Origin: a virus
Taxonomy: Duplodnaviria > Caudoviricetes
IMG/VR virus record: IMGVR_UViG_3300025128_000041
Span: 1-57,252 of that record
Reading direction: 5' to 3' (one strand)
Length of the DNA: 57,252 nt
The notes under the pieces were generated by a model that had not been told where the DNA came from, did no database searches, and worked only from the letters and a program-made list of their open reading frames with translations. Below are positions 1 through 56,828 of this stretch, in pieces. The position numbers and the translations under genes were made by a program. Within the stretch, counting starts at the first letter, position 1; each line of letters starts with the position of its first letter.

Positions 1-350
1 TATCATTAAAGTTTTCTAAAATATCAAACACAGGCCAATAACTCTTAAGGTGTTTAAACGTTATAACAACCTTATCGTCATTCCACGCTCTTCTTGCATA
101 CGGGCATGGAGACATCCCGTTATAACGGTCATCAGGCTCTTCCAGCCAATTAAAAGACCACTCTCTGATCTCCTTACGAATAGTATATTCTCGTATACTA
201 TTAGTTTTATTGGCTAAATATTCTAGCTTTGCCATAGCCTTAATATCATGTAGCTAATTTTGCTAGCCGTTCTTTCTAAAGTATTGAGTTCGAGCTGCGC
301 CGCTACCACGAGCAATTGTTTTAGGCTCACCTACTAAGCTGCCACCACTC
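1..350. repeat. Terminal overlap with 56594-57252 (allele lacking the 120-aa gene)
   Basis: 1-127 identical to 56594-56720; then scattered synonymous substitutions up to the ATG at 236/56828; 306-350 identical to the last 45 bases. Confidence 0.95.
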
Positions 351-487
351 ATCTTCTGTATTTCTTCCTGCTCAGATATAGCAATAGCCATAGCTTGTTT
401 AGGATTAGTAACCTTATCTCCTGAACCGGATTTAAGGTCACCGCTTCTAAACTCCTTCATAACTTTTTTAATCTTCTTTCCAGCCAT
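263..487 (-). CDS. Small basic phage protein, DUF6496-like
   Basis: KVMKEFRSGDLKSGSGDKVTNPKQAMAIAISE matches the pattern of this family; start overlaps the upstream stop. Confidence 0.7.
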   Translation of the reverse strand: MAGKKIKKVMKEFRSGDLKSGSGDKVTNPKQAMAIAISEQEEIQKMSGGSLVGEPKTIARGSGAARTQYFRKNG

Positions 488-723
488 TACACCGCCTTTT
501 TCAACGAGCCTTGCAGCTCCTTGCCTAGTTTTTTGATTGTCTGCTCCGACATATTAAGAAAATGTTCTAATGGCATTTTGTGCGCTATTGGTATAACGCT
601 TTTTGTTTCAAGTATTACTACATCCACATCCTGATCCAGCGATATAACTATATTGCAAGGATCGGCAGGATCAGTAAGACAAAACAAAACCGCGACCATT
701 TTTTCATCAAATTCACTAAGCAT
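487..723 (-). CDS. Hypothetical protein
   Basis: ORF coupled to both neighbours by TAATG overlaps in the late operon. Confidence 0.65.
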   Translation of the reverse strand: MLSEFDEKMVAVLFCLTDPADPCNIVISLDQDVDVVILETKSVIPIAHKMPLEHFLNMSEQTIKKLGKELQGSLKKAV

Positions 724-1124
724 TATCCAAACCTTTTCGCAACCTGCATTACAACAACGTAAACGTCACCGCTAGAGTGACCTGTTGTAGTAAACTGCAC
801 ATCGCCTGTAGTTCCAGAGGACAATGGATCTGGTAATCCAAACTCAGAAAAATCTAACGTATCAGTCCAATCAGCAGCTAATTGCCACGCAAGGTCATCA
901 GTAGAAGCGTCAAATAATATCTTTAAGCCCATACCAATGGTTTGATAATAGATTTTTTGTATAACAACAGACGAGCAAGATGCACCCGTAATACTTGGCG
1001 TTAGGGCAGAAACATCTATTTTAGTTACTGCGCTTTCACCCGTTCCATCACTGACATTAATAAACTTAAAGATGGCTGTTTTAGGGCCATCTTGAATAGT
1101 TTGGGTTGATACCGCATCAGCCAT
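723..1124 (-). CDS. Conserved virion-associated protein
   Basis: MADAVSTQTIQDG...SDGTGESAVTKIDVSAL N-terminus typical of aquatic phage head-region genes; GGAG SD. Confidence 0.7.
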   Translation of the reverse strand: MADAVSTQTIQDGPKTAIFKFINVSDGTGESAVTKIDVSALTPSITGASCSSVVIQKIYYQTIGMGLKILFDASTDDLAWQLAADWTDTLDFSEFGLPDPLSSGTTGDVQFTTTGHSSGDVYVVVMQVAKRFG

Positions 1125-1134
1125 AAATTACTCC

Positions 1135-1755
1135 CTACGATGCTACGTCGTAGCCAGTGATCTCAATCAGGAAACGTCCTGCTGTATATGCAGCATGACC
1201 TGTGCCTTGACCTACCAAGTATAAATACTGATCAGCAGCTATAGTTCCACCAGCAACCATAGTTCCTGCGGAAGCAGCACCGGCATTAATAATCTGAGTT
1301 TCTGTTAAATCACCAATGGCTGTGTCATTAACACCTGTGCCTTCAGTAGCAGAATACAAATCTATATCCGTACCACCACCAGCAGGTGTTTCGGTGCAAG
1401 TCATAGTCACACCAAATACAACGCCTTGGTTAGCCGTGGTTACTCGGCCAATAAATGCAACTCCATCACCATCTTTACCAATGATGTCGCCAGCAGTTCC
1501 ACCATCTCGCAAATCAGTAAGATCAATCATTATGGTTGTCTTAACAATATTTACATTAGTGTCAACGTCACTCTTTAAGCGATTAACTTGAGTTACATAA
1601 ACAGCAGCGGTGCCTTCAATACCAGCATCTGAAGTGGCTTCAGTAGCCATCTTGTCACCACTAGTAACTGTAATAGCGCCCGTGGTTGCATTTTTAGAAA
1701 TTTGTTGATACCCATTTTCCGAACGGACTGGGCCATTAAACGTAGTCTTAGCCAT
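1135..1755 (-). CDS. Putative head decoration/structural protein
   Basis: MAKTTFNGPVRSENG N-terminus, Thr/Gly-rich, directly downstream of the capsid gene; AGGAG SD. Confidence 0.7.
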   Translation of the reverse strand: MAKTTFNGPVRSENGYQQISKNATTGAITVTSGDKMATEATSDAGIEGTAAVYVTQVNRLKSDVDTNVNIVKTTIMIDLTDLRDGGTAGDIIGKDGDGVAFIGRVTTANQGVVFGVTMTCTETPAGGGTDIDLYSATEGTGVNDTAIGDLTETQIINAGAASAGTMVAGGTIAADQYLYLVGQGTGHAAYTAGRFLIEITGYDVAS

Positions 1756-1803
1756 GTGTGTCTCCTGTCGTGGCTAGTGTCTGTTGATTATACAACAGTC
1801 AGG

Positions 1804-1831
1804 AAAGAAAAGGGGGCGCAAAGCACCCCCC
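1804..1831 (-). terminator. Rho-independent terminator after the major capsid gene
   Basis: Minus strand GGGGGTGC-TTT-GCGCCCCC followed by TTTTCTTT, just after the capsid stop codon. Confidence 0.75.
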
Positions 1832-1837
1832 AATCCG

Positions 1838-2776
1838 TTAGCTCGATCCGGGTGATCCAAAGATTCCTAGTGGATCAGATACGCCGAAACTATAACGCTC
1901 TCGCGCCTTGTATCGAACATTACCTGTATCGAAATCACCGTCCATCGAATTCTCCAAAGCAGCTCTCTCAAAGTGCTTCATACCGTTAGGTATGTCTGTA
2001 ATCAGATACCATGAGTTAGTATCAGTCAAATAGTGATTGACTGAGTAGCCTTCTGGAATAGTTCCATTGGAACGAATTGCGTTGATGTCGTTATCCGCTG
2101 TCGCAGGTCTACCCTCCGATTGCAGAATACGAGTCGCCACAAACATATTGTTTGGGGGAACAATCAACTTTCTAGGACGAGCTGCGATCAATAGACCTCG
2201 CTCATCTTTCCAACCAGCAATAGTAATAACCGCTGCTTCGAGGGACGTTTCATTCAAGTCAGTTCCAGTGGCAGGACGATTATTGTTCTTGCCTCCGTCA
2301 ACTGTTGGGTGACCGTCACCGCCAGTTACACCATCACCAGACGCTGTGAAAAGGTTAACCCCATCACCTGACTGATATGAATTAGTGAAACCGTTGTTAA
2401 GCGGATTAGCAGCTTTGACTTGCTTAGTGTAAGCCATTGCTCTTGCTAATGCTTTGGTATAACGAGCAGACAGTGAGTCATAGAGGTTATCCTCCATAGC
2501 TTCTTCTGTAATTGCGAAACCCATTCCAATGGTTTCGTGATTATACCTAGCAGTGAAAGACTCTTGCGCAGTATCGTAACTGATAGCTGAACCTTCGTCT
2601 TTAACTGGTGCCGCAGCAAATCCACTCAACTTAACCTCTTCCTCGAATGAACGATCTGAAGATTCAGTCTCATAAATTTCTGCGTGTTCGTCTTCGTACT
2701 TATTGTACTCCAAGCCAAAAAGGGCATTAAGTCCCGGCAGGAGTTCCTTAAGCATTTGCGCTCTTGAAATAGCCAT
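1838..2776 (-). CDS. Major capsid protein (HK97 fold)
   Basis: MAISRAQMLKELLPGLNALFGLEY...DFDTGNVRYKARERYSFGVSDP signature; position after scaffold and decoration genes. Confidence 0.9.
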   Translation of the reverse strand: MAISRAQMLKELLPGLNALFGLEYNKYEDEHAEIYETESSDRSFEEEVKLSGFAAAPVKDEGSAISYDTAQESFTARYNHETIGMGFAITEEAMEDNLYDSLSARYTKALARAMAYTKQVKAANPLNNGFTNSYQSGDGVNLFTASGDGVTGGDGHPTVDGGKNNNRPATGTDLNETSLEAAVITIAGWKDERGLLIAARPRKLIVPPNNMFVATRILQSEGRPATADNDINAIRSNGTIPEGYSVNHYLTDTNSWYLITDIPNGMKHFERAALENSMDGDFDTGNVRYKARERYSFGVSDPLGIFGSPGSS

Positions 2777-2789
2777 TCTCTAATCTCCC

Positions 2790-3368
2790 TTAAACGCCAG
2801 TCGTATTAACGTACTGGTGACCAACATTGAATTTCATAATGACATCTGTATAGGTGTCATTGACTGCACTATTCGGGCCTGTCCAAAAATCATAGATTCT
2901 CAGCGGTAGCGTGTTAGTAGTTGCTACGGTGCTTCCGTCTACAGCATTCTTGCTTCGACCAATAGATGTTGAACCCGCTGTTTGTACTACAGCGAAGTTA
3001 GCGCCAATTGCTGTTTGGGCAATTGCTGCATCACTTTGCATTACAAATACAACATTAGGATCAGTAACGATATATGCCTCTGCATCGCTAGCAACCGTTG
3101 AAGCGGGCCACTGTTGATTAAAAGTCATTTGGTTAGTGCTTGGGTCTGTGTATTTACATCCCAAGAATATGCCGATAGGAGTTAAGGTTGTTGTGCCAGT
3201 ATCTTTCTCGACAGTACCAGCGGCAACTAACTTAACGAAATCGCCATAAAAAATAGCAGTAGCATAACCACTAGCTATCTTGATGTGCTGAACCTTGCCA
3301 TTAAACGAGCCACTTGCGCTCGTAGTGTTGACTGGTCTAGCACCTGAAGGGGCTGCTGTTGTAGCCAT
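2790..3368 (-). CDS. Capsid cement/decoration protein
   Basis: IASGYATAIFYGDFVKL...GIFLGCKYTDP motif; immediately upstream of the capsid gene. Confidence 0.7.
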   Translation of the reverse strand: MATTAAPSGARPVNTTSASGSFNGKVQHIKIASGYATAIFYGDFVKLVAAGTVEKDTGTTTLTPIGIFLGCKYTDPSTNQMTFNQQWPASTVASDAEAYIVTDPNVVFVMQSDAAIAQTAIGANFAVVQTAGSTSIGRSKNAVDGSTVATTNTLPLRIYDFWTGPNSAVNDTYTDVIMKFNVGHQYVNTTGV

Positions 3369-3404
3369 TAGATGTTACCTCGTTCAAACAATTTAATGCG
3401 GTTA

Positions 3405-3866
3405 CTAAGAACCACGGCCAAACGTAACACGAGTGTTTCGATCCGGTTTCAGCAAAGGCATCCGTGGATCGTTTTCTTTCATGTACGAGTTATCAACGCT
3501 CTGCATTTGTTGAGATGCTACATTTTCGTAATAACGCTGACGAGCTTCCGCAACTTCATCTGGAGCTTTACACAATAGCAATCCTCCAATTTCAACACAT
3601 CCGGGGAATCGAGATTCATGGTCTGGTATGATCTCTAACTCTGGATGGTCTTCCAACTTACAAGGTTCCCAGCCTTCTCTAAAACGCATTGATACATTAG
3701 TAGCATCACTTTGTCCCGTCATGGCAGTTCGGATATACCGAAACGTCCATCCCGGTTGAGGGGTAGGGTCAGGTAGTATTGGTGGAGGTGACCATTGCTC
3801 CATTCGCGCATTCTTATCACGCGACTCTAGTTCCCTTGGCGATCTTTCTTGAGTATCGTCTTCCAT
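3405..3866 (-). CDS. Conserved head-module protein
   Basis: WSPPPILPDP..GWTFRYIR..REGWEP..GGLLLCK motifs; lies between scaffold and decoration genes. Confidence 0.7.
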   Translation of the reverse strand: MEDDTQERSPRELESRDKNARMEQWSPPPILPDPTPQPGWTFRYIRTAMTGQSDATNVSMRFREGWEPCKLEDHPELEIIPDHESRFPGCVEIGGLLLCKAPDEVAEARQRYYENVASQQMQSVDNSYMKENDPRMPLLKPDRNTRVTFGRGS

Positions 3867-3878
3867 TAGCTAATCTCC

Positions 3879-4814
3879 TTATAATTGTGCTGCATATTGT
3901 TCATTGGTAATCCCAAGCCGTTTCGCTAACTGTACTTGCGTTTCAGATAACTTAACTTTGCGGGACTTCCTACCTGCTCGTTGAGCGGGTGCAACAACGG
4001 TGGATGTTCTTCTTTGTGTTGATTCAGACTGTTCTCTTTCAACCCCGAAGGCTTTTGGAAAACTCTCTCGAAGCGTTTTATCAATGGCTGAAAAGTATTC
4101 AGGAGAGTTTCTAACTATCCCTCTATGACCTAACATCTCATCTAAACCGTAAGCAAAACCTGTTAAGGCTTCATTTCCGGGCGCTCCAAACCAAGGGTTT
4201 TTTTGCAACCACGAAACCAGATTGGGGTCCATAGGTTGCTGTTGCGGCGCTGTCGCCGTTTGTTGTTGAGGTATCTGCTGTTCAGGCACACTCTGTTCTG
4301 GATTTACTTGAGGCTGATAGTTCTGTATATACGTTCTATCTGCCTGTATTTTTGCCATCTGCTCTTGAGCAGCAACCATCGCATCCGTATCACCTTCTTC
4401 GTGAGCTTGCTTATACGCACGCTTCGCGGTTTCTAATTCAGCTTCGGTTCGCGTCTGCACACTCTGTAGTAATGCTTGCTCGCTCCTGCCAACTAAACCT
4501 TGTAGGTGATCGTTGTGTTGTTTCTGCTGCTGTGCAAATTGAATTGCCTCATCACGCATACGCTGGGCTTCTTCTTTCTCCCTGCGTTGTTGATGGTATT
4601 CATACTTAAGACGATTAGTTCTTTTCTTAACGTTCTCATCCATGTCATCTATTTCGTCATCAAGACGAAACGGTTCGGATTGAGTTCTTAATTCTTTCTG
4701 ATCTTCAGCCGGACGATCATCAACTACCTCAACTTCTATCTCTTCGATTTCTTGAGGAACAAGATCTAATTCAGATTGAGGCTCTATAGGTTCTGGAAAT
4801 GATAATTCAGACAC
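3879..4814 (-). CDS. Capsid scaffolding protein
   Basis: Acidic coiled coil, WLQKNPWFG motif, C-terminal VKLSETQVQLAKRLGITNEQYA; position in head module. Confidence 0.7.
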   Translation of the reverse strand: MSELSFPEPIEPQSELDLVPQEIEEIEVEVVDDRPAEDQKELRTQSEPFRLDDEIDDMDENVKKRTNRLKYEYHQQRREKEEAQRMRDEAIQFAQQQKQHNDHLQGLVGRSEQALLQSVQTRTEAELETAKRAYKQAHEEGDTDAMVAAQEQMAKIQADRTYIQNYQPQVNPEQSVPEQQIPQQQTATAPQQQPMDPNLVSWLQKNPWFGAPGNEALTGFAYGLDEMLGHRGIVRNSPEYFSAIDKTLRESFPKAFGVEREQSESTQRRTSTVVAPAQRAGRKSRKVKLSETQVQLAKRLGITNEQYAAQL

Positions 4815-5220
4815 GCCTTATCCCCCTTGGATCTTCGACAACAGCTTCCACTGTGTCATCGTTAATGATACGAAACTCTTTGCCATGTATGCTTATCCGT
4901 GTTCCGCTATAAGATCGCATTAGGATAAAGTCGCCTTCTTTGCACCACGGGCCGCTTGGAAAACGTTTCTTATCCTGATAACAGTCTGGCCCCAACTTAA
5001 GAACAAACCCAACGATTGTGGCTGTTTCCTCAATCTCGATAGTCTGTCTTGCTTTAAGTATTCCGCCATCTGTTTTCTCTTCGCTTTCAGGTATACCAAT
5101 TAATATATGATACCCTGATGGTTCTGGTAGTTGTTTCGCCTTTTCTGCTTCAGACGATTCTTCTACCGCTTGTATTGTAGTTTCTGCTACTACGTCCATC
5201 TGCTTACCCTTATACACCAC
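4807..5220 (-). CDS. groES: Co-chaperonin GroES-like protein
   Basis: PSGYHILI..EEKTDGGIL..GFVLKLGPDCY..KEGDFILMRSYSGTRISIHGKEFRIINDDTVEAVV is a cpn10 pattern; start may be 5199. Confidence 0.85.
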   Translation of the reverse strand: MVYKGKQMDVVAETTIQAVEESSEAEKAKQLPEPSGYHILIGIPESEEKTDGGILKARQTIEIEETATIVGFVLKLGPDCYQDKKRFPSGPWCKEGDFILMRSYSGTRISIHGKEFRIINDDTVEAVVEDPRGIRRV

Positions 5221-5256
5221 TTAAAAGGAAGTGGTTAACCTTCGCACCCTGTAGTG

Positions 5257-5460
5257 CTAAATCTCAGTAAACGTTTTTTCGGCTACCTCCGTTATTTCAC
5301 GTTTTGCCATTTGTAAACCTTCTATCTGCCCCCTAACAACTTTATATTGCTCCATCGTTTCGATGCTTCCTGCAATTAAGGTTTCCGTTAGGCGAACTTC
5401 AGCCTCGTTTAAACGCGACAATATCAAATCTATAAACTGCGGGTCAACAAAATCTGCCAT
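5257..5460 (-). CDS. Conserved hypothetical protein after portal
   Basis: MEQYKVVRGQIEGL motif; TAATG coupling to the portal gene. Confidence 0.7.
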   Translation of the reverse strand: MADFVDPQFIDLILSRLNEAEVRLTETLIAGSIETMEQYKVVRGQIEGLQMAKREITEVAEKTFTEI

Positions 5461-8081: not shown

Positions 8082-8114
8082 AAATAACCTCGTGTTTTAC
8101 AGAGTTTAAACGCC

Positions 8115-9638: not shown

Positions 9639-10001
9639 ATACCGCCCTATAGTATAGTTATCGCCTTGCTAATGGAAGGCAGTCCCCCCATCGGGTATAA
9701 CACCACCCGATACTGGTCGGGGGGTTCCCTAGCTCCCCGACCACTCCTCAATAAGAAGCTCGTTGTAGCCATAAGTGAGCCACGCTTACTCCGAAAGGAC
9801 GAGAATCCTTTGGCTGTCAACCATTATAACTCAGGTACGTCTTACATCCAAACTGTCAACTAACATTTAGTTAACAGAAATGGTTTTTAATTTATATATA
9901 ATTTTTGTGGGGTGTAAACCAGAAAATAAACTGTGGTTTACAGGGGTGGGGGTTTGTAAAGTGAGAGTGTTCGACTGTCAGAATTTGTATATATAGGTAT
10001 A

Positions 10002-10087
10002 CGTGGGACTCCTGCGCATAATGCGGGTGGTCCGGGGTGCTGCACAACGTGTAAACGCATCGCCCGTGGGACTCCTAGGCATAATGC
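10002..10087. repeat. Two 23-bp direct repeats CGTGGGACTCCTnnGCATAATGC
   Basis: Copies at 10002-10024 and 10065-10087, 63 bp apart, between terS and terL. Confidence 0.85.
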
Positions 10088-10090
10088 ACG

Positions 10091-10513
10091 CTAGTCCTGC
10101 GCATCATGGGATAGCAAACCGTTTAAACGATCCAATATCACCGTAGGTGAGTCTACTTGCTGCTCCACTACGTGCTGTTGCTCCACATAAAGACGGGAGG
10201 CTTTGCCTCTGTGGTGCTCTGCTTGGATAGCTGCGCTGTATTGCCCAGCAGATTTAGCCTCATCCCGAAGGGAAGCCAGCGATTCGAGGTGATCGGAGAG
10301 AGAAAGCGCTCTTTCTTCCTCCAATTCCTTAGATCTACGATCTATTAGCTCCATAACGTCCTCTCTTTTAACCAACTTACTCCCCAGCTTTGCTGGGTGA
10401 CCTGTGTATCCCGCCATACGTACCGCATCACTCTGTGTGTGGCCTTCGGCTACGTACCGAGCAAACAAGCGTTCTTTCACCGATGTATGTATATGAGGCA
10501 TAGCGCGATTCAA
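10091..10513 (-). CDS. terS: Terminase small subunit
   Basis: N-terminal HTH (KERLFARYVAEGHTQSDAVRMAGY), LRDEAKSAGQYSAAIQAEHHRGKA; upstream of terL. Confidence 0.75.
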   Translation of the reverse strand: MNRAMPHIHTSVKERLFARYVAEGHTQSDAVRMAGYTGHPAKLGSKLVKREDVMELIDRRSKELEEERALSLSDHLESLASLRDEAKSAGQYSAAIQAEHHRGKASRLYVEQQHVVEQQVDSPTVILDRLNGLLSHDAQD

Positions 10514-10559
10514 TGCAAAACTTATACGTAGTATAAAAACTTATTGGAATAAAAAATAG

Positions 10560-10591
10560 TTGACAAAGTTTAAACGATATGAGCTTAGTGT
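10560..10591 (+). promoter_or_regulatory. Candidate early promoter with GTTTAAAC in the spacer
   Basis: A-rich tract then perfect TTGACA (10560-10565); best -10 TAGTGT is at an atypical 20-bp spacing. Confidence 0.45.
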
Positions 10592-10598
10592 AATGGCA

Positions 10599-10900
10599 AC
10601 TGAGCGGCGGAGCTTCTCCATCTCCAGTAGCCCGATAGGTGTAGGCCACCTCCCCACGGATCTTGGGGTGCATCATGTTAACGGCGATGTGATGTTACAG
10701 CGAAGCTGAAAGGATGTCGGAACTGGGGCGTAGCGGTCCTTCGAGTCTCCCTCGATACCGCCAAACCAGTGGACAGCGTAGCTGAAATGTTGCGTGGCAT
10801 AGGAGATATGCCTCATGTCCGAGTAGCTAAGATTTCATCTTAGAGAGGCTTACGATAACGGTAGGCCACTACGAGATTAGATCTTGCTTGTTTTACAAGT
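10599..10900 (+). ncRNA. Candidate large structured non-coding RNA / early leader
   Basis: No convincing ORF; more than 10 hand-identified helices nested in multiway junctions (see findings). Confidence 0.6.
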
Positions 10901-10942
10901 GACAACCGTTTAAACTAGAGTTTCGCAACAAGGAGTTATCCT

Positions 10943-11572
10943 ATGGATAAGATATACAACGACCGAGAGCAGTGGTTAAACGCTGCCATCATCTTGCTCA
11001 TTAATGAGCTGTTCACACTTGCTGGAGTCCAACCGGCTGAATGGGAGTCGAAGAGATACGCAGTATCTTGTGGCTTCCCTATTGGATACAGAGGATCACG
11101 TACTGGCAAGGTGACCCTTGGTCAAGCTTTTGACCCCGCCACATCGTCTAACGGCACCGCTGAGATGTTCATCAACCCCATCATGGATGATGTGATCGAG
11201 GTACTGCTGGTGCTGCTGCACGAGATGGTTCATGTCCTAGTGGGTAACCATGAGGGACACAAGGGGCGTTTCGCAGTGGTTGCCAAGGCAATGGGTTTAA
11301 CCACCCCGCTGACGGCTTTGATGAGTGCCGAAGGCAAATACAATGCTACTGAGGAGCTTATCGCTAAGATTCGAGAGATTGCCGAAATACTCGGAGAGTA
11401 TCCACACTCGAAGGTTGACCCCCAGATGCGAAAGAAACAAGGCACCCGAATGCTTAAGATCTCTTGCACTGATTGCGGTTTTACCGCAAGAGCTTCTGCT
11501 AAATGGGTATCTTTGATACACAGCAATTCACCCTGCCCAGTGTGTTCATCAGCTACGCTGGTCACTGAGTAA
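10943..11572 (+). CDS. SprT-like zinc metalloprotease with C-terminal zinc ribbon
   Basis: LLHEMVH...GHKGRF zincin motif; C-terminal CTDC...CPVC. Confidence 0.8.
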   Translation: MDKIYNDREQWLNAAIILLINELFTLAGVQPAEWESKRYAVSCGFPIGYRGSRTGKVTLGQAFDPATSSNGTAEMFINPIMDDVIEVLLVLLHEMVHVLVGNHEGHKGRFAVVAKAMGLTTPLTALMSAEGKYNATEELIAKIREIAEILGEYPHSKVDPQMRKKQGTRMLKISCTDCGFTARASAKWVSLIHSNSPCPVCSSATLVTE

Positions 11573-11605
11573 CGTTTAAACAAATCGCAACAAGGAGAAC
11601 ATTTC

Positions 11606-12727
11606 ATGTTCGATCATTCTAACAAAATTCCACCCCATTCACTAATGAAAATCACCGATGCGCTGGAGTTAATCCAGCTTGGTGACGCTCCCAACGCCAT
11701 CCAATCATCAGCGCTTAAACTGCTAGCAGTACGCTACGGCAAAGGCACGATGACTGAGCAAGAGATGATCAACCTATGGTTGAGCGGTCCCGATGCTGGT
11801 CAACCTGTGGTTGATGAGTCAAGCATGGCAGCCGCTGTAGTACAGCTCGAAGAGACGATGACCAAGAAGATCCAGCCCCAGCTCGAAGAGATTCGAGAAC
11901 AGGTAGGCAAGACGGTCAAGACCGAGCTTACCATCACCATAGGTGACTACAGCAAAAACCTTGGCACTGAAGCCAAACACTACGTGTTCGAGAAGGTACT
12001 GATCAAGATTGCAGCACGTTTAAACGTTTACCTCCCCGGTCCTGCTGGATCCGGCAAGACTACGATTGCGGAGCAAATAGCCGAGGCGCTTGATCTTCCC
12101 TTCTATGCCTACGGTGCCATCGGCATGGCCCACGAATTCGAGGGATTTATGAACGCTCAAGGCAACTACGTTGAATCGATGCTTTACAAGGCATTCAAGA
12201 ATGGCGGGATGGTGCTGTTCGATGAGATGGACGCTTCCAACGCTAATGCGTTGCTTCGTTTAAACGCTATCCTAGCCAACAAGATCGCAGCATTCCCCAA
12301 CGGGGAGATGGTCAAGAAGCATCCAGACTTCGTAGTCATAGCAACAGGCAACACGTTTGGACATGGAGCAACAGCGCAGTACGTAGGACGTAACCCGCTA
12401 GACGGTGCAACGCTCGACCGATACGTCAACATCCCTATGGGATACGATGAGGAGCTAGAGCGCAGCATAGCTGGCAACGATGCATGGGTAGACTTTGTTC
12501 AAGCAGTGAGGCACGTAGCAGAGGAACACAAGATGCGCTACATCGTCAGCCCAAGAGCGAGCATTAACGGAGCGATACTGATCGCTGCTGGTGACAACGT
12601 GGATGACATCAAAGATGAAACCATCTTCAACAAGGGATTCAGCGAAACCGATCTTGAAAAGATCAACACTGATCCACGAGTAATCAACGCTGGAATCGCA
12701 CTTAACGACAGCCAAGCAGTAGCTTAA
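11606..12727 (+). CDS. MoxR/CbbQ/NorQ-type AAA+ ATPase
   Basis: Walker A GPAGSGKT, Walker B VLFDEMD, HPDFVVIATGNT, RNPLDGATLDRY, SPRAS. Confidence 0.9.
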   Translation: MFDHSNKIPPHSLMKITDALELIQLGDAPNAIQSSALKLLAVRYGKGTMTEQEMINLWLSGPDAGQPVVDESSMAAAVVQLEETMTKKIQPQLEEIREQVGKTVKTELTITIGDYSKNLGTEAKHYVFEKVLIKIAARLNVYLPGPAGSGKTTIAEQIAEALDLPFYAYGAIGMAHEFEGFMNAQGNYVESMLYKAFKNGGMVLFDEMDASNANALLRLNAILANKIAAFPNGEMVKKHPDFVVIATGNTFGHGATAQYVGRNPLDGATLDRYVNIPMGYDEELERSIAGNDAWVDFVQAVRHVAEEHKMRYIVSPRASINGAILIAAGDNVDDIKDETIFNKGFSETDLEKINTDPRVINAGIALNDSQAVA

Positions 12728-12738
12728 GGAGTTTAAAC

Positions 12739-13593
12739 ATGGCAAGACGCAAGCAAGGACAGACATTGACAGTCGAATCTACATACGGCGAAGTAATCGA
12801 CAAGATGCGCACTGGTGTCCTAAAGGACAACGACATGAGATCATCTAAGACTAGTGACAAGTCATTTACTGGCACCGACACATTTGATGAAGCGGTACAC
12901 CTAGCAGTCAACGGATGGGATGAGGGACGCAGCGAGCTAGCACAGAGCGCAGAGTTTGCATCGGCGCTGGTACAACAGATCGACCAGCCAACGTGGGAGT
13001 TTGCTCCTTCTGGAGCGATGCCTCACATCCCAGCGGCAGCGGCTGGAGTGCCTGACAACATGATGACCCTCTACGAGAACGACACCAATCGCAAGATGCC
13101 TATCGTGACAATGTATGTAGACATCGGAGCAACGTGGAACACTACGACCGAAGCGATGATACGAAGAGGCGGGGCAATCGTGGCTCTTGTAGACCAGATC
13201 GAAGCAAGCGGCAAGCGAGTGCAGATCGTGGCAACGAGTGCAACGGAGACTCACGGAGTGAAGTTTGATGGAGTCAACACAAGCAAGCTGATCCACAAGA
13301 TCACCATCAAGGAAGCCGGAGAGCATCTGGACATTGACAGAGTGGCATTCGCTACAGCTCACCCAGCGATGCTCAGACGGATATGGTTCAGGCTTGTGGA
13401 GATCCATGCAGATGGCATCGTGTCTGGATATGGCAACGTAGGCAAGCTTAAGGCTGAAGACATCGAGTCCAACGCAATGTATGTCCCTCCGATGTACGGA
13501 GACGATGGATACTACAGCGAAGAGGAAGCAGTCGAGACTGTTCAAGGACTCTGGAGGGAGGCGACCGAAGGGGAAACCTTTGAAGCCGCGTAA
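12739..13593 (+). CDS. Degenerate vWA-like partner of the AAA+ ATPase
   Basis: Adjacent to a MoxR-type ATPase; RRGGAIVALVDQIEASGKRVQI and AFATAHPAMLRRIWF motifs; canonical DxSxS MIDAS not evident. Confidence 0.6.
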   Translation: MARRKQGQTLTVESTYGEVIDKMRTGVLKDNDMRSSKTSDKSFTGTDTFDEAVHLAVNGWDEGRSELAQSAEFASALVQQIDQPTWEFAPSGAMPHIPAAAAGVPDNMMTLYENDTNRKMPIVTMYVDIGATWNTTTEAMIRRGGAIVALVDQIEASGKRVQIVATSATETHGVKFDGVNTSKLIHKITIKEAGEHLDIDRVAFATAHPAMLRRIWFRLVEIHADGIVSGYGNVGKLKAEDIESNAMYVPPMYGDDGYYSEEEAVETVQGLWREATEGETFEAA

Positions 13594-13617
13594 CGTTTAA
13601 ACACAAACGGATTACAC

Positions 13618-13648
13618 TTGACAACCAACTAAACAATCGGGTTACAAT
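13618..13648 (+). promoter_or_regulatory. Candidate sigma70-type promoter
   Basis: TTGACA-19bp-TACAAT in an intergenic gap. Confidence 0.5.
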
Positions 13649-13683
13649 GGTAACCTATTCGCAACCGCAACAAGGAGAACATT

Positions 13684-13923: not shown

Positions 13924-13968
13924 CCTTTCGCAACAACAGGGGGGGCTTGTCCCCCCAAGGAGAACACG

Positions 13969-14652: not shown

Positions 14653-14653
14653 T

Positions 14654-14806: not shown

Positions 14807-14807
14807 T

Positions 14808-15241: not shown

Positions 15242-15262
15242 ACAACGCAGACCGGAGGATTG

Positions 15263-15565: not shown

Positions 15566-15580
15566 TAAACTAAAAAAACG

Positions 15581-18944: not shown

Positions 18945-19113
18945 GTTTAAACGGAGCACTATTCATTACACCACGAGTCACAACAATACTGCTGTTGGTC
19001 ATAGCGCTTCCGTCACAATACCACCCGTCACAATAACACCGCTGTTGGTCATCAGTTTAAACGGCGCACATCTCATTACACCGCAGGTCATAATAATACC
19101 GCTGTTGGTCATA
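18945..19113. repeat. Imperfect direct-repeat cluster, candidate replication origin
   Basis: ~59-bp unit at 18945 and 19055; GCTGTTGGTCAT at 18991, 19041, 19101; several GTCAYAA(T/C)A submotifs. Confidence 0.8.
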
Positions 19114-53860: not shown

Positions 53861-54151
53861 TTATAGTCTCCTTATAATATCAGCCATATCTTCATGGCCC
53901 TGTTTACTCAGCATATTATGCAATGTTGTTTGATTGCTTAATATTGCATCCTGACACGCCTGTACTATTACATAATACATACGCTGTTTAAACGCTTCTG
54001 CTTGCGCTTTTAATACTGGATCAGTTCCTTCGGATATGCTAATAATCTTTTCACAAGCTCTTTTCGCAATTTCTTCTGGAGTAAAACCTCTATGCTCTGT
54101 GGTTTCTACGCTTACACTGCCTGATGACATACCTACGTCCATTGTAAACAT
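53861..54151 (-). CDS. Conserved hypothetical protein
   Basis: TTEHRGFTPEE..KIISIS..QAEAFK. Confidence 0.65.
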   Translation of the reverse strand: MFTMDVGMSSGSVSVETTEHRGFTPEEIAKRACEKIISISEGTDPVLKAQAEAFKQRMYYVIVQACQDAILSNQTTLHNMLSKQGHEDMADIIRRL

Positions 54152-54792
54152 CAGCTAGTCCTCATCTTGATTTGGCCTGTACGGTACGCATCAGTTCGAT
54201 CATAACCGTCTGCTTCTAACTTTAATTGCCCTAAAGATGTATCAAATTGATTTTGATATAATTGAATTACATCAGGCTCGCCTTTCATAAATATATAAGC
54301 TTGCACTAACGCTCCATACAACAAGGCATTATCTGCATTAGTTCCAAGCCAGCTTGTTCCATCTCCCGCTGTAGTAATAGATGTTGGTTTATAAAAGTAA
54401 TGAAGCTCTGCCGTATAGTTTGATCCGGGCGTAGGGCCAATTATAAATGTTGTGTCATCAAACAAAGCATAATACTTAGGAACACCTGTAGTAGCGCTTA
54501 CAGGATAAAGCTCACGCATATAGTTAACATCTTTAAATATCAAATACTCATAACCAGAATCATTAATCGCCAATGAATATGGAAACAAAAAGTCTGAAGG
54601 AGTTGATAGATAAGCACTACTAGATGTTAACGTTCCAGTAACATTCTTTCTGAAGTTAGGAAGCTGAACCGTTCTTAGTATCGTTTCTTCTGCTGAAACA
54701 ACAAAACGTGCAATGTTATTGCTAAAGGTTGTCTCAGTATTTTCAGTATAATCTTTAATTGCTTGAGTTAATGTAGTATATGTCCACGCCAT
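54151..54792 (-). CDS. Head-tail adaptor / tail tubular A-like protein
   Basis: TYTTLTQAIKDYTEN, GVPKYYA, GPTP..Y..ELHY, LLYGAL. Confidence 0.7.
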   Translation of the reverse strand: MAWTYTTLTQAIKDYTENTETTFSNNIARFVVSAEETILRTVQLPNFRKNVTGTLTSSSAYLSTPSDFLFPYSLAINDSGYEYLIFKDVNYMRELYPVSATTGVPKYYALFDDTTFIIGPTPGSNYTAELHYFYKPTSITTAGDGTSWLGTNADNALLYGALVQAYIFMKGEPDVIQLYQNQFDTSLGQLKLEADGYDRTDAYRTGQIKMRTS

Positions 54793-55136
54793 TATGATGT
54801 ACTCACTGTTACGTTTCCGGCTTTAACGTGTATATCCAAACCAACAGTCCTGCTACCAAGCTCGCTTATACCACCACCAACAGGATCAAAAGCAAACATT
54901 CTTCTTGAATCAGATAACGCTTTAGGCGGTCTTGGATTTCTAAGAGCTTGAGGATCTGAAATACTCATTCGGCCTAATTCATATTGAGGGTTATCTTTAT
55001 CAAGCTGATCATAACCAACCCTAAAACCAGTATCCCTTCCATCCCTAATTAATGGGACTAAATCACTTAGCTTGTATCTAAAGCCAGTTATATCGCAATA
55101 TCCAAAAGCATACTTGCCGCTAGCATAGATACTCAT
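54792..55136 (-). CDS. Conserved neck-region protein
   Basis: YASGKYAFGYCDITGFRYKL..DPQALRNPRP. Confidence 0.65.
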   Translation of the reverse strand: MSIYASGKYAFGYCDITGFRYKLSDLVPLIRDGRDTGFRVGYDQLDKDNPQYELGRMSISDPQALRNPRPPKALSDSRRMFAFDPVGGGISELGSRTVGLDIHVKAGNVTVSTS

Positions 55137-55828
55137 ACTGTTCTATAGCCTCCCGGCGTAAAGAACAATGATGACTTATCACGATCTGCATCAGCCGCTA
55201 ATGACCATTGCTCTTCATATACCTGCTTTAACATAGGTATTCTATCTGCCGACTCTGGCTTTTTAAGGCTAATTTGATAAGCAAGTCCGGCAACCATACA
55301 TGGCAAATACCTAGCAGGTATATCTACATTATTAGTTGCAGGGCTACCTGTGTCTTCAACCCTTTGCAAATAATAATAAACCAGTGTGTATGTAGCCGTT
55401 GAATCAGGCACAGGCCAAAGGTTCATTGATATTGCTGCCGGATCTTTTTCCAACCAATACTGCAAAGGCTTAGATGACGATAGCTTGTTTGTTAAATGAG
55501 CAAACTGACTAACTGATATTCTAGTTAGCATTTGATCTGTCTGCTTACTAGTATCACCAGCATCGGTTCTTATAAACGCCTCTACAATATCCAACACATC
55601 GCCATCAAAGGTATACCTTGCGGTTCCAGATGTTATTGCTTGAGTGCCTTCTTGAATTGTCCAAAGGTTTAAACCTCTATTTTGCCATTCAAGAAATAAC
55701 AGATCCAAGCTGCGTCTAGCTGTTCTATAGTCATAACCGCTCTTCGCTTCCAACCCAGCACGCTCAAACGACTCTTCGACTATATCTCCAAGATCTAAAT
55801 TAAATGTGTAGGTTCCGCTAGTAGCCAT
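55133..55828 (-). CDS. Head-tail adaptor-like protein
   Basis: EESFERAG..TARRSLDLLFLEWQNRGLNLW..LWPVPD..LPCMVAGLAY. Confidence 0.7.
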   Translation of the reverse strand: MATSGTYTFNLDLGDIVEESFERAGLEAKSGYDYRTARRSLDLLFLEWQNRGLNLWTIQEGTQAITSGTARYTFDGDVLDIVEAFIRTDAGDTSKQTDQMLTRISVSQFAHLTNKLSSSKPLQYWLEKDPAAISMNLWPVPDSTATYTLVYYYLQRVEDTGSPATNNVDIPARYLPCMVAGLAYQISLKKPESADRIPMLKQVYEEQWSLAADADRDKSSLFFTPGGYRTV

Positions 55829-55831
55829 ACT

Positions 55832-56050
55832 TTACTTCTTCGTGGTTTTTTTAGCTGGAGCTTTTTTAACAGCAGGTTCTTTTTTAGGCTCTGCTTTTTT
55901 AGGAGCTAATGCCTTTAGCGCTGCATCTGCTTCCTTCTTTGTATAAGGCCCAACATCCACAACTTCGTCTTCAGCATTTGCAATTTGATATACAGGATCT
56001 CCTGTAAGCAAGCTGTAGCCATTTTCAACTACCTTTAGTTTATCAGCCAT
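55832..56050 (-). CDS. Small protein with Lys/Ala/Pro tail
   Basis: GGAGG SD; KKAEPKKEPAVKKAPAKKTTKK tail. Confidence 0.65.
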   Translation of the reverse strand: MADKLKVVENGYSLLTGDPVYQIANAEDEVVDVGPYTKKEADAALKALAPKKAEPKKEPAVKKAPAKKTTKK

Positions 56051-56062
56051 AATTCCTCCGAA

Positions 56063-56197
56063 TTACTTCTTAGGTCGTTTCTTTTTGTTGACTCCAACCT
56101 TCTTCATTGGCTTGCCAACCATTCTACCGCCCCGCATAGCCTTAGGCCGCTTCTTCTTGTTCACCCCAACTTTCTTCATTGGCTTCTTTCCGGGCAT
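56063..56197 (-). CDS. 44-aa very basic protein with internal duplication (absent from the ORF track)
   Basis: Hand translation MPGKKPMKKVGVNKKKRPKAMRGGRMVGKPMKKVGVNKKKRPKK; AAGGA SD. Confidence 0.75.
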   Translation of the reverse strand: MPGKKPMKKVGVNKKKRPKAMRGGRMVGKPMKKVGVNKKKRPKK

Positions 56198-56198
56198 C

Positions 56199-56828
56199 TT
56201 AATTTTCCTTAAGTTGTTTATAAAACTGTTCTCTTAATTCAAAGATATGAGATGGCTCTGAATCTTTAAACATGGCTTCATAATATCCAGTAGGCTTTAA
56301 CTTGTAAGCGGCTTCTTGCAACTTATCAAGCCTTTGGATGAATATCATGGCATATATCTCTTCTTCATCTGGCGGGATTAAAAGACTGCTTGTGTCATAC
56401 TTAACAGGAGCATCATCTTCATAATCAAGCATTCCTTCATGCTCTTCATCATCTGGATGAAAACCCATTACCCAAAGATTCTTATCACCAAATGCACCAT
56501 TAGCTATTCCATGATTAATGCCAATTAATCTTTGATGAAACTCTTCAGGCTCTTCTTGATACTGCGTATCTGCAATAATCGTTAAGTCTTTGTTATCATT
56601 AAAGTTTTCTAAAATATCAAACACAGGCCAATAACTCTTAAGGTGTTTAAACGTTATAACAACCTTATCGTCATTCCACGCTCTTCTTGCATACGGGCAT
56701 GGAGACATCCCGTTATAACGATCATCAGGCTCTTCTAGCCAGTTAAAAGACCACTCTCTGATCTCCTTACGAATAGTATATTCCCGTATACTATTTGTTT
56801 TATTAGCTAGGTATTCGAGCTTTGCCAT
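56199..56828 (-). CDS. DUF1415-like protein
   Basis: PCPYARRAW, VMGFHPD, IFIQRLDKL; start set at MAKLEY, the point where the two alleles converge. Confidence 0.6.
   Translation of the reverse strand: MAKLEYLANKTNSIREYTIRKEIREWSFNWLEEPDDRYNGMSPCPYARRAWNDDKVVITFKHLKSYWPVFDILENFNDNKDLTIIADTQYQEEPEEFHQRLIGINHGIANGAFGDKNLWVMGFHPDDEEHEGMLDYEDDAPVKYDTSSLLIPPDEEEIYAMIFIQRLDKLQEAAYKLKPTGYYEAMFKDSEPSHIFELREQFYKQLKEN

What the first reader, a model, noticed from the sequence alone, without database searches (positions are those of the whole stretch)
52..56652. Genome-wide highly iterated palindrome GTTTAAAC (often CGTTTAAACG)
Seen, by manual count: GTTTAAAC starts at 52 (=56645), 5407, 8104, 9614, 10121, 10568, 10908, 11574, 12018, 12258, 12731, 13595, 14819, 15270, 16030, 16616, 17142, 17965, 18512, 18945, 19055, 19821, 20204, 20633, 22134, 23175, 24352, 24942, 25291, 26000, 27246, 27468, 29291, 30652, 30791, 32350, 34996, 36982, 37292, 39498, 41027, 43521, 45629, 47160, 53986 and 55667. 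That is ~46 unique sites; a rough base-composition estimate gives ~1-2. About 12 extend to the 10-mer CGTTTAAACG. 26 lie in 10.1-26.0 kb (early/replication arm). Many sit at functional junctions: in a promoter spacer (10568), just after stop codons (8104, 11574, 13595), between SD and ATG (12731, 41027) and heading both origin-like repeats. Inside genes the site is read in different frames (RLN, FKQ/FKR), so selection acts on the DNA rather than the protein. Established: this is the PmeI site, and phages normally avoid palindromes; analogues are cyanobacterial HIP1 and mycobacteriophage stoperators. Inference: a dispersed binding-site system for a phage HTH (25466-25741 or 17844-18257) or for a host DNA-binding/methylating protein, used to coat, silence, protect or organise the incoming genome. 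I recognised no phage methyltransferase.
Basis: partly seen in the sequence, partly recalled or inferred. Interest (0 to 1): 0.88.

Follow-up and report, generated by a model that had tools for sequence, protein, structure and literature searches.

The report
Phage-wide GTTTAAAC word tied to SprT-like protein
This marine phage has written the eight-letter palindrome GTTTAAAC into almost every place its genes allow, and the word travels through unrelated phages together with one small zinc-protease-like protein that is probably its reader, a pairing I found described in no paper.

Summary
GTTTAAAC occurs 47 times (46 unique; the contig repeats its first 659 bases) against 1.0 +/- 0.9 in dinucleotide shuffles. 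There are 33 copies inside genes against 3.6 +/- 1.7 in synonymous-codon shuffles. The genome is near saturation: 33 of 40 codon-compatible positions carry the word.

The trait belongs to a clade. TerL relatives at 72% identity or more have it; those at 69% or less do not.

It tracks one gene, window 10943-11572. This encodes a 209-aa SprT/Spartan-like HExxH protein with a C-terminal zinc ribbon, predicted to form a homodimer.
- Among TerL-selected loci: 20 rich with the gene, 12 poor without it, 0 discordant.
- It is the only window protein shared with all five cultured phages tested.
- Methylophilales phage Venkman has 34 copies.
- Arthrobacter phage Reedo and Streptomyces phage UNTPL carry the one-letter variant GTGTAAAC 28 and 39 times.
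- Klebsiella phage KA2-1 has only 7 copies. Bordetella phage MW2 has none, and its homolog lacks the ribbon.

Best reading: dispersed docking sites for this phage protein. What the protein does there is inferred. No binding was shown.

This scan's earlier notes reached the same pairing on other genomes. I found no paper on it.

The parts
52..56652 (.). 46 unique dispersed GTTTAAAC sites (47 listed; 52 and 56645 are one site). Flanks are preferred as YGTTTAAACR. 26 sites lie in the early arm, 10121-26007.
   Evidence: Left flank C 25, T 10; right flank G 22, A 17. 33 sites inside genes against 3.6 in codon shuffles. 33 of 40 codon-compatible positions are filled. Early-arm spacing is regular: CV 0.51 against 0.94 for random placement, with 0 of 5000 simulations as low.
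10943..11572 (+). Candidate reader: a 209-aa SprT/Spartan-like zinc metalloprotease-like protein. It has an invariant basic segment (R163, K165, Q166, T168, R169) and a four-cysteine ribbon (C175, C178, C198, C201). It is the first gene of the early operon.
   Evidence: - Invariant H93, E94, H97, H106 in 23 sequences.
- Fold hit to the human SPRTN SprT domain 6mdx_A: Z 7.2, rmsd 3.9, 102 residues aligned. Foldseek 6mdw E 8.6e-3.
- One homolog carries PF10263.
- GenBank homologs are annotated 'SprT-like protease'.
- Homodimer prediction: 0.71 against a best control of 0.00.
- Co-occurrence with the word.
11606..12727 (+). AAA_5 (MoxR/CobS-like) ATPase that follows the SprT-like gene in this marine group.
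   Evidence: Pfam AAA_5 2.8e-12; phrog_249. A homolog is present in 57 of 93 loci that were gathered by p209 homology or that carry a p209 homolog, many of them truncated. It has no match in the five cultured phages.
12739..13593 (+). DUF7192 protein, the third gene of the same module.
   Evidence: Pfam DUF7192 5.1e-41. Present in 54 of 93 loci. No match in the five cultured phages.
10560..10921 (+). Upstream region of the SprT-like gene. It holds TTGACA at 10560 with the 10568 site 2 nt behind it, a stretch of about 340 nt without an ORF, and the 10908 site in the spacer of a promoter-like TTTACA-18-TAGAGT.
   Evidence: The promoter call is no better than chance (1 found against 0.8 in shuffles).
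18945..19113 (.). Three direct repeats of about 55 nt in the convergent intergenic gap. Units 1 and 3 begin with GTTTAAACGG.
   Evidence: identity to the reference unit 63% and 83%.

Best explanation
GTTTAAAC (YGTTTAAACR) is a DNA-level address written across the phage chromosome. It is most likely read by the phage's own early protein at 10943-11572, a dimeric SprT/Spartan-like zinc-metalloprotease-like protein. The proposed DNA-reading part is its conserved KKQ-xTR segment and C-terminal zinc ribbon.

Shown here:
- The word is real and is selected at the DNA level almost to saturation.
- It has reshaped protein sequences.
- It is a heritable trait of a clade.
- Across unrelated phages it, or a one-letter variant, co-occurs with this one protein family.

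Inferred:
- The protein binds the word as a symmetric dimer.
- My preferred mechanism is that the array spreads a DNA-dependent protease along the phage DNA, about every 0.6 kb in the early arm. In this marine group the neighbouring AAA+ and DUF7192 proteins may help. The protease would then remove or cut host proteins that sit on incoming or replicating phage DNA.
- This mechanism is by analogy with SPRTN/Wss1 and with the plasmid anti-restriction protein ArdC. It is the least certain step.
For: (1) Over-representation against every null: 46 against 1.0, 1.1-3.9, and 33 against 3.6 in codon shuffles.

(2) Saturation. 17 of 20 xxG-TTT-AAA-Cxx positions and 16 of 20 [CGRS]-L-N positions are filled. 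By region this is 17 of 18 in the early arm and 16 of 22 elsewhere.

(3) Selection reaches the proteins. Compatible peptides run at 3.83 per 1000 aa (early arm) and 1.66 (rest), against 0.55 in the sister phage G005, where 0 of 10 are filled. The tripeptide RLN occurs 13 times against 3.2 expected.

(4) Clade trait. Whole relatives G001-G004 hold 38, 40, 28 and 36 sites; G005 holds 0. Some sites keep their position across proteins only 35-45% identical (window 5407, 10121, 25291, 29291, 34996), while many others turn over.

(5) Pairing with the gene:
- TerL-selected loci that cover the gene's position: 20 rich with the gene, 12 poor without, 0 discordant.
- The profile is found in G001 and G003. 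It is not found in G005 (100% complete), DSL-LC04 or HTVC027P.
- A scan of IMG/VR for three close sites, blind to genes, listed 80 loci. The 13 with a homolog include most of the loci with the highest dispersed density, among them phages whose TerL is only 37-39% identical or that share nothing else with the window.
- Of 80 loci chosen by the protein, 47 are rich in the exact word. Most of the rest are enriched for GTTTAAA or GTTTAAAT.

(6) Cultured phages. The SprT-like gene is the only window protein shared with all five. Venkman has 34 sites, 32 of them in the first 19 kb, next to the gene. Reedo has GTGTAAAC 28 times (0.8 expected) and UNTPL 39 times.

(7) MW2, which has no iterated word, encodes a homolog without KKQ-xTR and without the four cysteines (n = 1).

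(8) A palindromic site fits a predicted symmetric homodimer. Score 0.71, best of 3 controls 0.00. The mark was reached by 20 of 30 proteins solved as pairs of one chain and by 1 of 23 solved as single chains. The runs share at least 75% of contacts and the partner pLDDT is 86. My own alignment was used, so these counts hold only roughly.

(9) The non-palindromic variants occur in both orientations: Reedo 8 and 20, UNTPL 23 and 16, and GTTTAAAT in both strands relative to genes. This argues against a signal that depends on the direction of transcription or replication.

(10) Precedent. The ArdC paper (PMC7213743, passages read) reports a DNA-binding metalloprotease domain structurally closest to Spartan 6MDW, needed to pass a recipient's hsdRMS restriction system.
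Against: - No binding was tested.
- Within the window's own family, the 20/12/0 table reflects one evolutionary split. Five other genes split the same way.
- There is no general autoregulatory signature. Only 30 of 75 loci have RTTTAAAY within 450 bp upstream of the gene, a density of 1.01 per kb against 0.78 elsewhere. The tandem clusters next to the gene in 13 loci were selected by a search that required clusters.
- The pairing is not all-or-none. 33 of 80 protein-selected loci lack strong enrichment for the exact word, and KA2-1 has only 7 copies.
- Four motif-dense fragments (20-48% complete) showed no homolog in the whole record. A fifth did.
- Pfam gives no SprT hit for the window protein itself at E <= 0.01. 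The fold match is middling: Z 7.2, in the range the tool calls common.
- I found no simple residue-to-letter code between ribbon sequence and word.
- The AAA+ and DUF7192 genes are absent from the cultured phages. They cannot be required for the pairing, and nothing here shows that they act with the protease.
Confidence: 0.5

Rival explanations
1. Same reader, different job. The SprT-like protein is mainly a regulator. Bound at sites every ~0.6 kb in the early arm, it blocks RNA polymerase and shuts early genes off as it accumulates. This would be a stoperator-like timer in a lytic phage.
For: - 26 of 46 sites lie in the early arm, with regular spacing.
- In Venkman, 32 of 34 sites lie in the first 19 kb beside the gene.
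- One site lies in the spacer of a promoter-like element just upstream of the gene.
- The gene is first in the early operon.
Against: - The late arm is saturated too, with 16 of 22 positions filled. The difference in density comes from the number of compatible peptides.
- The HExxH...H residues are invariant in 23 sequences, which a pure DNA binder would not need.
- There is no general enrichment upstream of the gene.
Confidence: 0.15
2. The word is read by something else: a host protein, or a small phage protein that I did not recognise. The SprT-like gene merely travels in the same early module.
For:
- Five other genes share the clade split.
- The pairing is imperfect.
Against: - The SprT-like gene is the only window protein shared with the five cultured phages.
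- Their hosts span Actinobacteria and Proteobacteria, so a single host reader is unlikely.
- The immediate neighbours of the gene differ in each cultured phage.
- G005, with the same heavy palindrome avoidance, has no sites.
- No host-wide enrichment was seen in 301 genomes of one order. None of the 80 listed prokaryotic loci with site clusters showed it either: at most 4 of 16 500-bp bins held a site, and none had a homolog.
Confidence: 0.2
3. The sites are replication or recombination signals, such as priming sites, secondary origins or hot spots. The phage would need them because, as far as scanned, it encodes a primase-helicase and a PD-(D/E)XK exonuclease but no DNA polymerase.
For: - Two sites head iteron-like ~55-nt repeats next to the primase-helicase gene.
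- Tandem clusters of 3-6 sites occur in 13 related loci.
- No polymerase was found among the 40 proteins scanned.
Against: - G005 has homologs of the same primase-helicase (33% identity) and exonuclease (37% identity), and no sites.
- Reedo has its own DNA polymerase I and still carries 28 copies of the variant word.
- Saturation of every codon-compatible position is not expected of origins.
Confidence: 0.08
4. A mutational or repair drive (biased gene conversion or very-short-patch-like repair) turns near-cognate words into GTTTAAAC without any benefit per site.
For: Near-saturation. Clade-specific HNH/DUF968 and PD-(D/E)XK genes are present.
Against: - One-mismatch neighbours are not swept out: 21 in the window against 34 in G005.
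- Protein sequences have been reshaped to allow more sites.
- Some sites are kept in place across deep divergence.
- The HNH gene has no match in the cultured phages.
Confidence: 0.04
5. The sites relate to restriction-modification. They would be PmeI-type targets kept because they are methylated or otherwise protected.
For: The word is the PmeI recognition sequence (recalled, not from a call). The genome is otherwise under extreme palindrome avoidance: 24 of 64 hexamer palindromes are absent.
Against: - Restriction pressure predicts avoidance, not a 40-fold excess.
- No methyltransferase was found among the 40 proteins scanned.
- Protection does not explain positive selection for more sites.
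Confidence: 0.03

Closest known systems
Stoperators of Cluster A mycobacteriophages (L5 gp71 / Bxb1 gp69 immunity repressor). Recalled from my own knowledge; no paper read here.
   Same: Dozens of copies of one short word are dispersed through a phage genome, inside and between genes. They are read by one phage-encoded DNA-binding protein.
   Different: As I recall them, stoperators are asymmetric 13-14-bp sites, oriented with transcription, and read by the repressor of a temperate phage to silence the prophage. Here the word is an 8-10-bp palindrome, and its variants lie in both orientations. It fills nearly every codon-compatible position. It is shared by unrelated phages of different phyla. 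The candidate reader has an invariant metalloprotease motif. I saw no integrase or repressor in the window among the proteins scanned.
HIP1 (GCGATCGC) and alternate highly iterated palindromes of cyanobacterial chromosomes (Elhai 2015). Recalled; not read here.
   Same: An exact 8-bp palindrome is over-represented by one to two orders of magnitude, genome-wide, in all permitted reading frames, and the function is unexplained.
   Different: HIP1 is a property of host chromosomes and is linked (as recalled) to orphan methyltransferases. Here the word is a property of phage genomes and tracks a phage protein. CGATCG is absent from the window. No methyltransferase was found among the proteins scanned. 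No host-wide enrichment was seen where tested.
SPRTN/Wss1 DNA-dependent metalloproteases and plasmid ArdC (PMC7213743, passages read)
   Same: An HExxH zincin core with a third histidine, as in SPRTN. The best fold match is the SPRTN SprT domain. There is a zinc-binding DNA-contacting part next to the protease. ArdC shows that a mobile element can use such a domain against host restriction.
   Different: As far as I know, SPRTN and ArdC bind single-stranded or junction DNA without sequence specificity. Here a specific duplex palindrome is implied, with a genome-wide array of it. No protease activity or substrate is known for the phage protein.
KorA operator of IncP plasmids (GTTTAGCTAAAC). Recalled.
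   Same: The outer half-sites GTTTA/TAAAC resemble the phage word.
   Different: It is a 12-bp operator at a handful of promoters, read by an HTH repressor. No relation was tested.

Membership tests
SprT-like / Spartan / Wss1 metalloprotease (for the protein at 10943-11572) | HExxH with a third zinc ligand a few residues downstream | tested here: met
   H93, E94, H97 and H106 are invariant in 23 aligned sequences and are kept in all 38 sequences aligned.
SprT-like / Spartan / Wss1 metalloprotease (for the protein at 10943-11572) | Sequence match to Pfam SprT-like (PF10263) | tested here: inconclusive
   No Pfam family at E <= 0.01 for the window protein. One of the 120 listed homologs (P0112) carries PF10263. 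GenBank depositors name homologs 'SprT-like protease'.
SprT-like / Spartan / Wss1 metalloprotease (for the protein at 10943-11572) | Fold of the SprT metalloprotease sub-domain | tested here: inconclusive
   The model has pLDDT 78.8. The best of 48,161 chains is SPRTN 6mdx_A (Z 7.2, rmsd 3.9, 102 aligned), followed by minigluzincins at Z 6.3-6.5 and Wss1 at Z 4.9. Foldseek gives 6mdw at E 8.6e-3. The tool warns that a Z under 8 is common.
SprT-like / Spartan / Wss1 metalloprotease (for the protein at 10943-11572) | DNA-dependent protease activity | not testable with these tools
   Needs a purified protein assay.
Stoperator array | Asymmetric site with a fixed orientation relative to transcription | tested here: not met
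   The site is a palindrome. The non-palindromic variants lie in both orientations: Reedo 8 and 20, UNTPL 23 and 16, and GTTTAAAT on both strands relative to genes. The feature itself is recalled.
   No integrase or CI-like repressor was identified among the 40 proteins scanned. One HTH_3 protein (25466-25741) exists but does not track the word.
HIP1-type highly iterated palindrome | An exact 8-bp palindrome, far over-represented, in every permitted frame | tested here: met
HIP1-type highly iterated palindrome | A property of the cellular chromosome | tested here: not met
   In 301 genomes of one order the word reached at most 87 copies in 3.7 Mb and was mostly rarer than its reversed control. 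The 80 listed prokaryotic loci with clusters showed only local tandems. The true host is unknown, so this test is limited.
HIP1-type highly iterated palindrome | A cognate orphan methyltransferase | tested here: not met
   No methyltransferase family was found among the 40 window proteins scanned. About 40 genes were not scanned.
Iteron origin with adjacent initiator | A tandem cluster of sites next to the gene of the binding protein | tested here: not met
   In the window the closest pair of sites is 110 bp apart, and only single sites lie upstream of the gene. Clusters lie near the gene in 13 relatives that were picked by a cluster search, but not in general: 30 of 75 loci have any site within 450 bp.

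The most novel reading that the evidence does not exclude
A sequence-addressed protease system. The phage marks its own chromosome with a saturating array of one palindrome. A dimeric SprT-like metalloprotease, helped here by a MoxR-type AAA+ and a DUF7192 partner, is tethered and switched on only on phage DNA. There it strips or destroys host DNA-bound proteins such as restriction complexes, silencers and roadblocks. Word and reader move together between unrelated phages as a portable two-part module.
Probability: 0.25. Interest if true: 0.95.

Novelty: categorically new. Interest (0 to 1): 0.86.

Why it matters
If the pairing holds, many phages of marine, freshwater and soil bacteria carry a two-part system that nobody has described. 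One part is a short DNA word, selected so strongly that it shapes codon choice and even protein sequences. The other is a protease-like protein that reads it.

This would matter in four ways:
- It gives function to a widespread 'SprT-like protease' annotation: 159 GenBank phage records.
- It offers a tractable model for the long-unexplained highly iterated palindromes.
- It points to a possible new route of anti-defence or chromosome management.
- It warns annotators that codon and peptide usage in these phages is constrained by DNA-level selection.

Cultured systems exist for direct tests: Methylophilales phage Venkman, Arthrobacter Cluster AZ-type phage Reedo and Streptomyces phage UNTPL.

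Tried and rejected
Tried without result, or rejected:

- megablast of window 1-20000 against GenBank phages: no match.
- HNH/DUF968 (24421-24717) and the 155-aa protein (25002-25469): they split with the clade but have no match in the cultured phages.
- Autoregulation by sites upstream of the SprT-like gene: not general.
- Orientation bias of variant words: none that is strict.
- Depletion of one-mismatch neighbours: not seen.
- Spacing over the whole genome and in the late arm is not more regular than random (CV 1.02 and 0.77). Only the early arm is regular.
- A residue-to-letter code in the ribbon: none that I could see.
- PDB sequence search with the profile: nothing below E 0.1.
- Relatives of the protein in 185,579 prokaryotic species genomes: the pattern scan found none. 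The patterns were narrow, so this is weak.
The 80 listed are local tandems.
- Sequencing runs: 20 runs of 15 studies hold the stretch or part of it. All are kept as contigs, so molecule ends, nicks and methylation could not be seen. No RNA holder is listed.
- In one search, none of the 40 listed variable positions falls in a site. However, 340 further positions were not shown and only about 0.5 would be expected, so this says nothing.
- Literature:
  - 'GTTTAAAC' with 'phage': 20 papers, 19 listed, all cloning or unrelated by title and abstract.
  - The variant words: 1,422 papers, 15 listed, none on phages.
  - 'SprT-like', 'phage', 'MoxR': 120 papers, 15 listed; I read only the listing.
  - Supplements were closed and may hold motif tables that I could not see.
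- Rfam: only Mu-gpT-DE at 1753-1804.

Full report
**1. The observation**

The window is a complete, circularly permuted phage contig. Its first 659 bases recur from 56594, so the unique length is 56,593 bp, and it is the only contig of its assembly.

Sites 52 and 56645 are one site.

Chance gives far fewer:
- 100 dinucleotide-preserving shuffles average 1.00 (sd 0.93, maximum 4).
- Markov models of order 0 to 4 expect 1.1 to 3.9.
- Shuffling synonymous codons within each gene gives 3.6 +/- 1.7 (maximum 9 in 500) against the 33 sites that lie wholly inside genes.

The word is the commonest 8-mer in the genome, and 46 of the 64 TTTAAA lie inside it. The flanks are biased to YGTTTAAACR: C 25 and T 10 on the left, G 22 and A 17 on the right. 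CGTTTAAACG occurs 12 times.

This stands out against the opposite trend for other palindromes: 24 of the 64 hexamer palindromes are absent altogether.

**2. How strong the selection is**

One frame of the word reads GTT TAA, a stop, so only two frames are possible in genes. Both are used.

I counted the places where the protein sequence would allow the word by synonymous choice alone:
- 17 of 20 xxG-TTT-AAA-Cxx positions carry it.
- 16 of 20 [CGRS]-Leu-Asn positions carry it.
- By region this is 17 of 18 in the early arm and 16 of 22 elsewhere.

The higher density in the early arm (26 of 46 sites in 16 kb) comes from more compatible peptides, 3.83 against 1.66 per 1000 residues. It does not come from a higher fill rate.

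In the sister phage G005 such peptides are much rarer, at 0.55 per 1000, and none of its 10 is filled. The tripeptide RLN occurs 13 times where 3.2 are expected. Selection on the DNA word has therefore reached into the amino-acid sequences.

About 14 sites lie in the 7% of the genome that is intergenic. In two genes the TAA of the word is the stop codon.

In the early arm the sites are spaced more evenly than chance: CV 0.51 against 0.94, with 0 of 5000 simulations as low and gaps of 110-1501 bp. This is not so in the late arm or over the whole genome.

**3. What the phage is**

The gene order and the matches to portal, large terminase, primase-helicase and virion proteins place it near Pelagibacter phages HTVC027P and HTVC023P, phage DSL-LC04 and 023Pt_psg01. 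TerL identity to these is 52-59%.

It is common in marine metagenomes. 20 runs of 15 studies hold the stretch or part of it, and 10 of them hold half of its words or more. Near-identical contigs from four studies cover 8001-28000. The word is therefore not an assembly or ligation artefact.

**4. A clade trait**

Among 80 IMG/VR loci found through TerL, those with TerL at 72% identity or more almost all have GTTTAAAC as their top 8-mer palindrome. Density is 0.3-1.5 per kb across G+C of 0.37-0.51. Loci at 69% or less have none or one.

Whole relatives hold 38, 40, 28 and 36 sites (G001-G004). G005, 100% complete, holds 0. G005 shares the heavy palindrome avoidance (31 hexamer palindromes absent), while HTVC027P and DSL-LC04 do not.

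Some window sites are kept at the homologous position in all or most relatives, although the proteins there are only 35-45% identical (5407, 10121, 25291, 29291, 34996). Many others are specific to a lineage. Thus some sites are held in place while others turn over.

**5. Which gene goes with the word**

Six window genes are present in G001-G004 and have no match in G005, DSL-LC04 or HTVC027P:
- 10943-11572
- 11606-12727
- 12739-13593
- 20864-21139
- 24421-24717
- 25002-25469

To break this tie I searched IMG/VR for three copies of the word within short gaps, without reference to any gene. Of the 80 loci listed, most are local tandem arrays. The 13 that encode a homolog of 10943-11572 include most of the loci with the highest dispersed density. 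Among them are phages whose TerL is only 37-39% identical to the window's, and contigs that share no other protein with it.

Going the other way, I took 80 loci chosen by the protein. Of these, 47 are rich in the exact word. Most of the rest are enriched for GTTTAAA or CGTTTAA, mainly as GTTTAAAT next to GTTTAAAC, with no strand bias relative to genes.

Further support:
- In TerL-selected loci that cover the gene's position the table is 20 rich with the gene, 12 poor without, 0 discordant. This is one phylogenetic split.
- A profile of the family finds the gene in G001 and G003, and not in G005, DSL-LC04 or HTVC027P.

**6. Cultured phages**

GenBank holds 159 phage records with a homolog, mostly annotated 'SprT-like protease': Arthrobacter 70, Microbacterium 43, and others.

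I took five of them:

| Phage | Iterated word |
|---|---|
| Methylophilales phage Venkman | 34 GTTTAAAC in 38.6 kb, 32 in the first 19 kb, where the gene is gp1 |
| Klebsiella phage KA2-1 | 7 GTTTAAAC (0.7 expected) |
| Arthrobacter phage Reedo | GTGTAAAC 28 times (0.8 expected) |
| Streptomyces phage UNTPL | GTGTAAAC 39 times in a 68% G+C genome |
| Bordetella phage MW2 | no related word |

The SprT-like protein is the only window protein with a match in all five. Its neighbours differ in each.

The MW2 homolog is the one that lacks the KKQ-xTR segment and the four cysteines.

**7. The protein**

In 23 aligned sequences the following are invariant:
- H93, E94, H97 and H106
- a basic segment: R163, K165, Q166, T168, R169
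- C175, C178, C198 and C201

The AlphaFold model (pLDDT 78.8) is closest to the SprT domain of human SPRTN (6mdx_A: Z 7.2, rmsd 3.9, 102 aligned). Minigluzincins and Wss1 come next. Foldseek gives 6mdw at E 8.6e-3. These scores are middling.

Pfam gives no hit for the window protein itself, although one homolog carries PF10263.

Two copies are predicted to pair symmetrically. The contacts run through residues 42-50, 63-82 and 155-162, which are conserved blocks that were disordered in the monomer model. Details of the prediction:
- Score 0.71, best of 3 controls 0.00.
- The mark was reached by 20 of 30 proteins solved as pairs of one chain and by 1 of 23 solved as single chains.
- The runs agree in at least 75% of contacts, and the partner pLDDT is 86.
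- My own alignment was used.

A symmetric dimer fits a palindromic site. The prediction supports this but does not show it.

**8. Against a host signature**

- The profile's patterns found no relative in the prokaryotic genome collection.
- Clusters of the word in prokaryotic genomes are local tandems without the gene.
- In 301 genomes of the order of a Zoogloea MAG the word reaches at most 87 copies in 3.7 Mb, and in most it is rarer than its reversed control. Three of these genomes are flagged unpublished.
- I chose that order because the window's tail fibre is 39-44% identical to a protein of Venkman, whose host is a Methylophilales strain. I could not check that this family was in the sample.

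**9. What speaks against my reading**

- Nothing here shows binding.
- The site is not generally enriched upstream of the gene: 30 of 75 loci, at 1.01 against 0.78 per kb.
- 33 of 80 protein-selected loci are not rich in the exact word.
- Four dense fragments showed no homolog in records that are 20-48% complete.
- I could not read a recognition code from the ribbon.
- The AAA_5 ATPase and the DUF7192 protein follow the gene in 57 and 54 of 93 loci, but they are absent from the cultured phages. Any joint action is a guess.

**10. Mechanism**

I commit to the following. The word is a docking address for the phage's dimeric SprT-like protein.

Most likely, the array places a DNA-dependent protease along the phage chromosome to remove host proteins bound to it. 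This is modelled on SPRTN/Wss1 and on ArdC, a plasmid protein with a Spartan-like metalloprotease domain that is needed to pass a recipient's hsdRMS system (PMC7213743, passages read).

Three points fit:
- A per-site benefit is suggested by the saturation.
- The gene's place at the head of the early operon fits an early role.
- The catalytic residues are invariant.

A timer that blocks early transcription is the main alternative for the same reader.

**11. Novelty**

My searches found no paper on the word in phages or on its variants. The SprT-like, phage and MoxR search gave only genome descriptions by title.

Earlier notes of this scan, on other genomes, describe the same word and the same pairing. 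I reached the pairing, before reading them, and tested it here on independent loci. Those notes are not independent evidence.

Noticed in passing
whole window; relatives G001-G005: Extreme avoidance of hexamer palindromes. 24 of 64 are absent from the window and 24-31 from G001-G005. Only 4 and 2 are absent from HTVC027P and DSL-LC04. This suggests hosts rich in 6-bp restriction systems.
   Followed up: partly
window 18945-19113: Three direct repeats of about 55 nt with GTCACAAYA sub-repeats, in the convergent gap behind the primase-helicase gene. Two units start with GTTTAAACGG. This is a possible origin of replication.
   Followed up: partly
window 10599-10900: A G+C-rich stretch of about 340 nt without an ORF, between TTGACA (10560) and the SprT-like gene. 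Another note of this scan (e1-6236926) proposes a structured leader RNA. Rfam found nothing there.
   Followed up: no
window 1753-1804 (-): Rfam Mu-gpT-DE RNA, 60.6 bits (gathering score 49), just downstream of the major capsid gene.
   Followed up: no
window 49724-52672 (-): The tail fibre or spike protein is 39-44% identical over 440-720 residues to a protein of Methylophilales phage Venkman. Two further proteins (28591-29064 and 54151-54792) also match. This is a hint that the host is an OM43-like methylotroph.
   Followed up: partly
window, all genes scanned: No DNA polymerase family was found among the 40 proteins scanned. A primase-helicase (19158-20867) and PD-(D/E)XK nucleases (21108-21572, 22273-23202) are present. 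About 40 genes were not scanned.
   Followed up: partly
window 15260-15565, 15581-16057, 18468-18893: An early protein has a SutA RNA-polymerase-binding domain. There are two homing-endonuclease-like genes, HNH_3 and GIY-YIG.
   Followed up: no
L001 against the window: L001's TerL is 93% identical to the window's, but its SprT-like protein is only 53% identical. The word is the same.
   Followed up: no
window 29036-38842 (-): A single 3268-aa ORF. Relatives match only 6-50% of its length. It carries 7 of the sites. Its domains were not scanned.
   Followed up: no
16 in-frame sites of the type xGT TTA AAC: In this frame the word contains U UUA AAC, which I recall as a classic -1 frameshift slippery heptamer. 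Whether any of the sites causes frameshifting was not examined (for the count).
   Followed up: no
L266, L271 (distant homologs, 38-40% identity): Loci with the most distant homologs show other over-represented words: ACCTACA 10 times and AGTCTCC 8 times, against 0.3 expected. These could be unrelated repeats or a shifted address.
   Followed up: no
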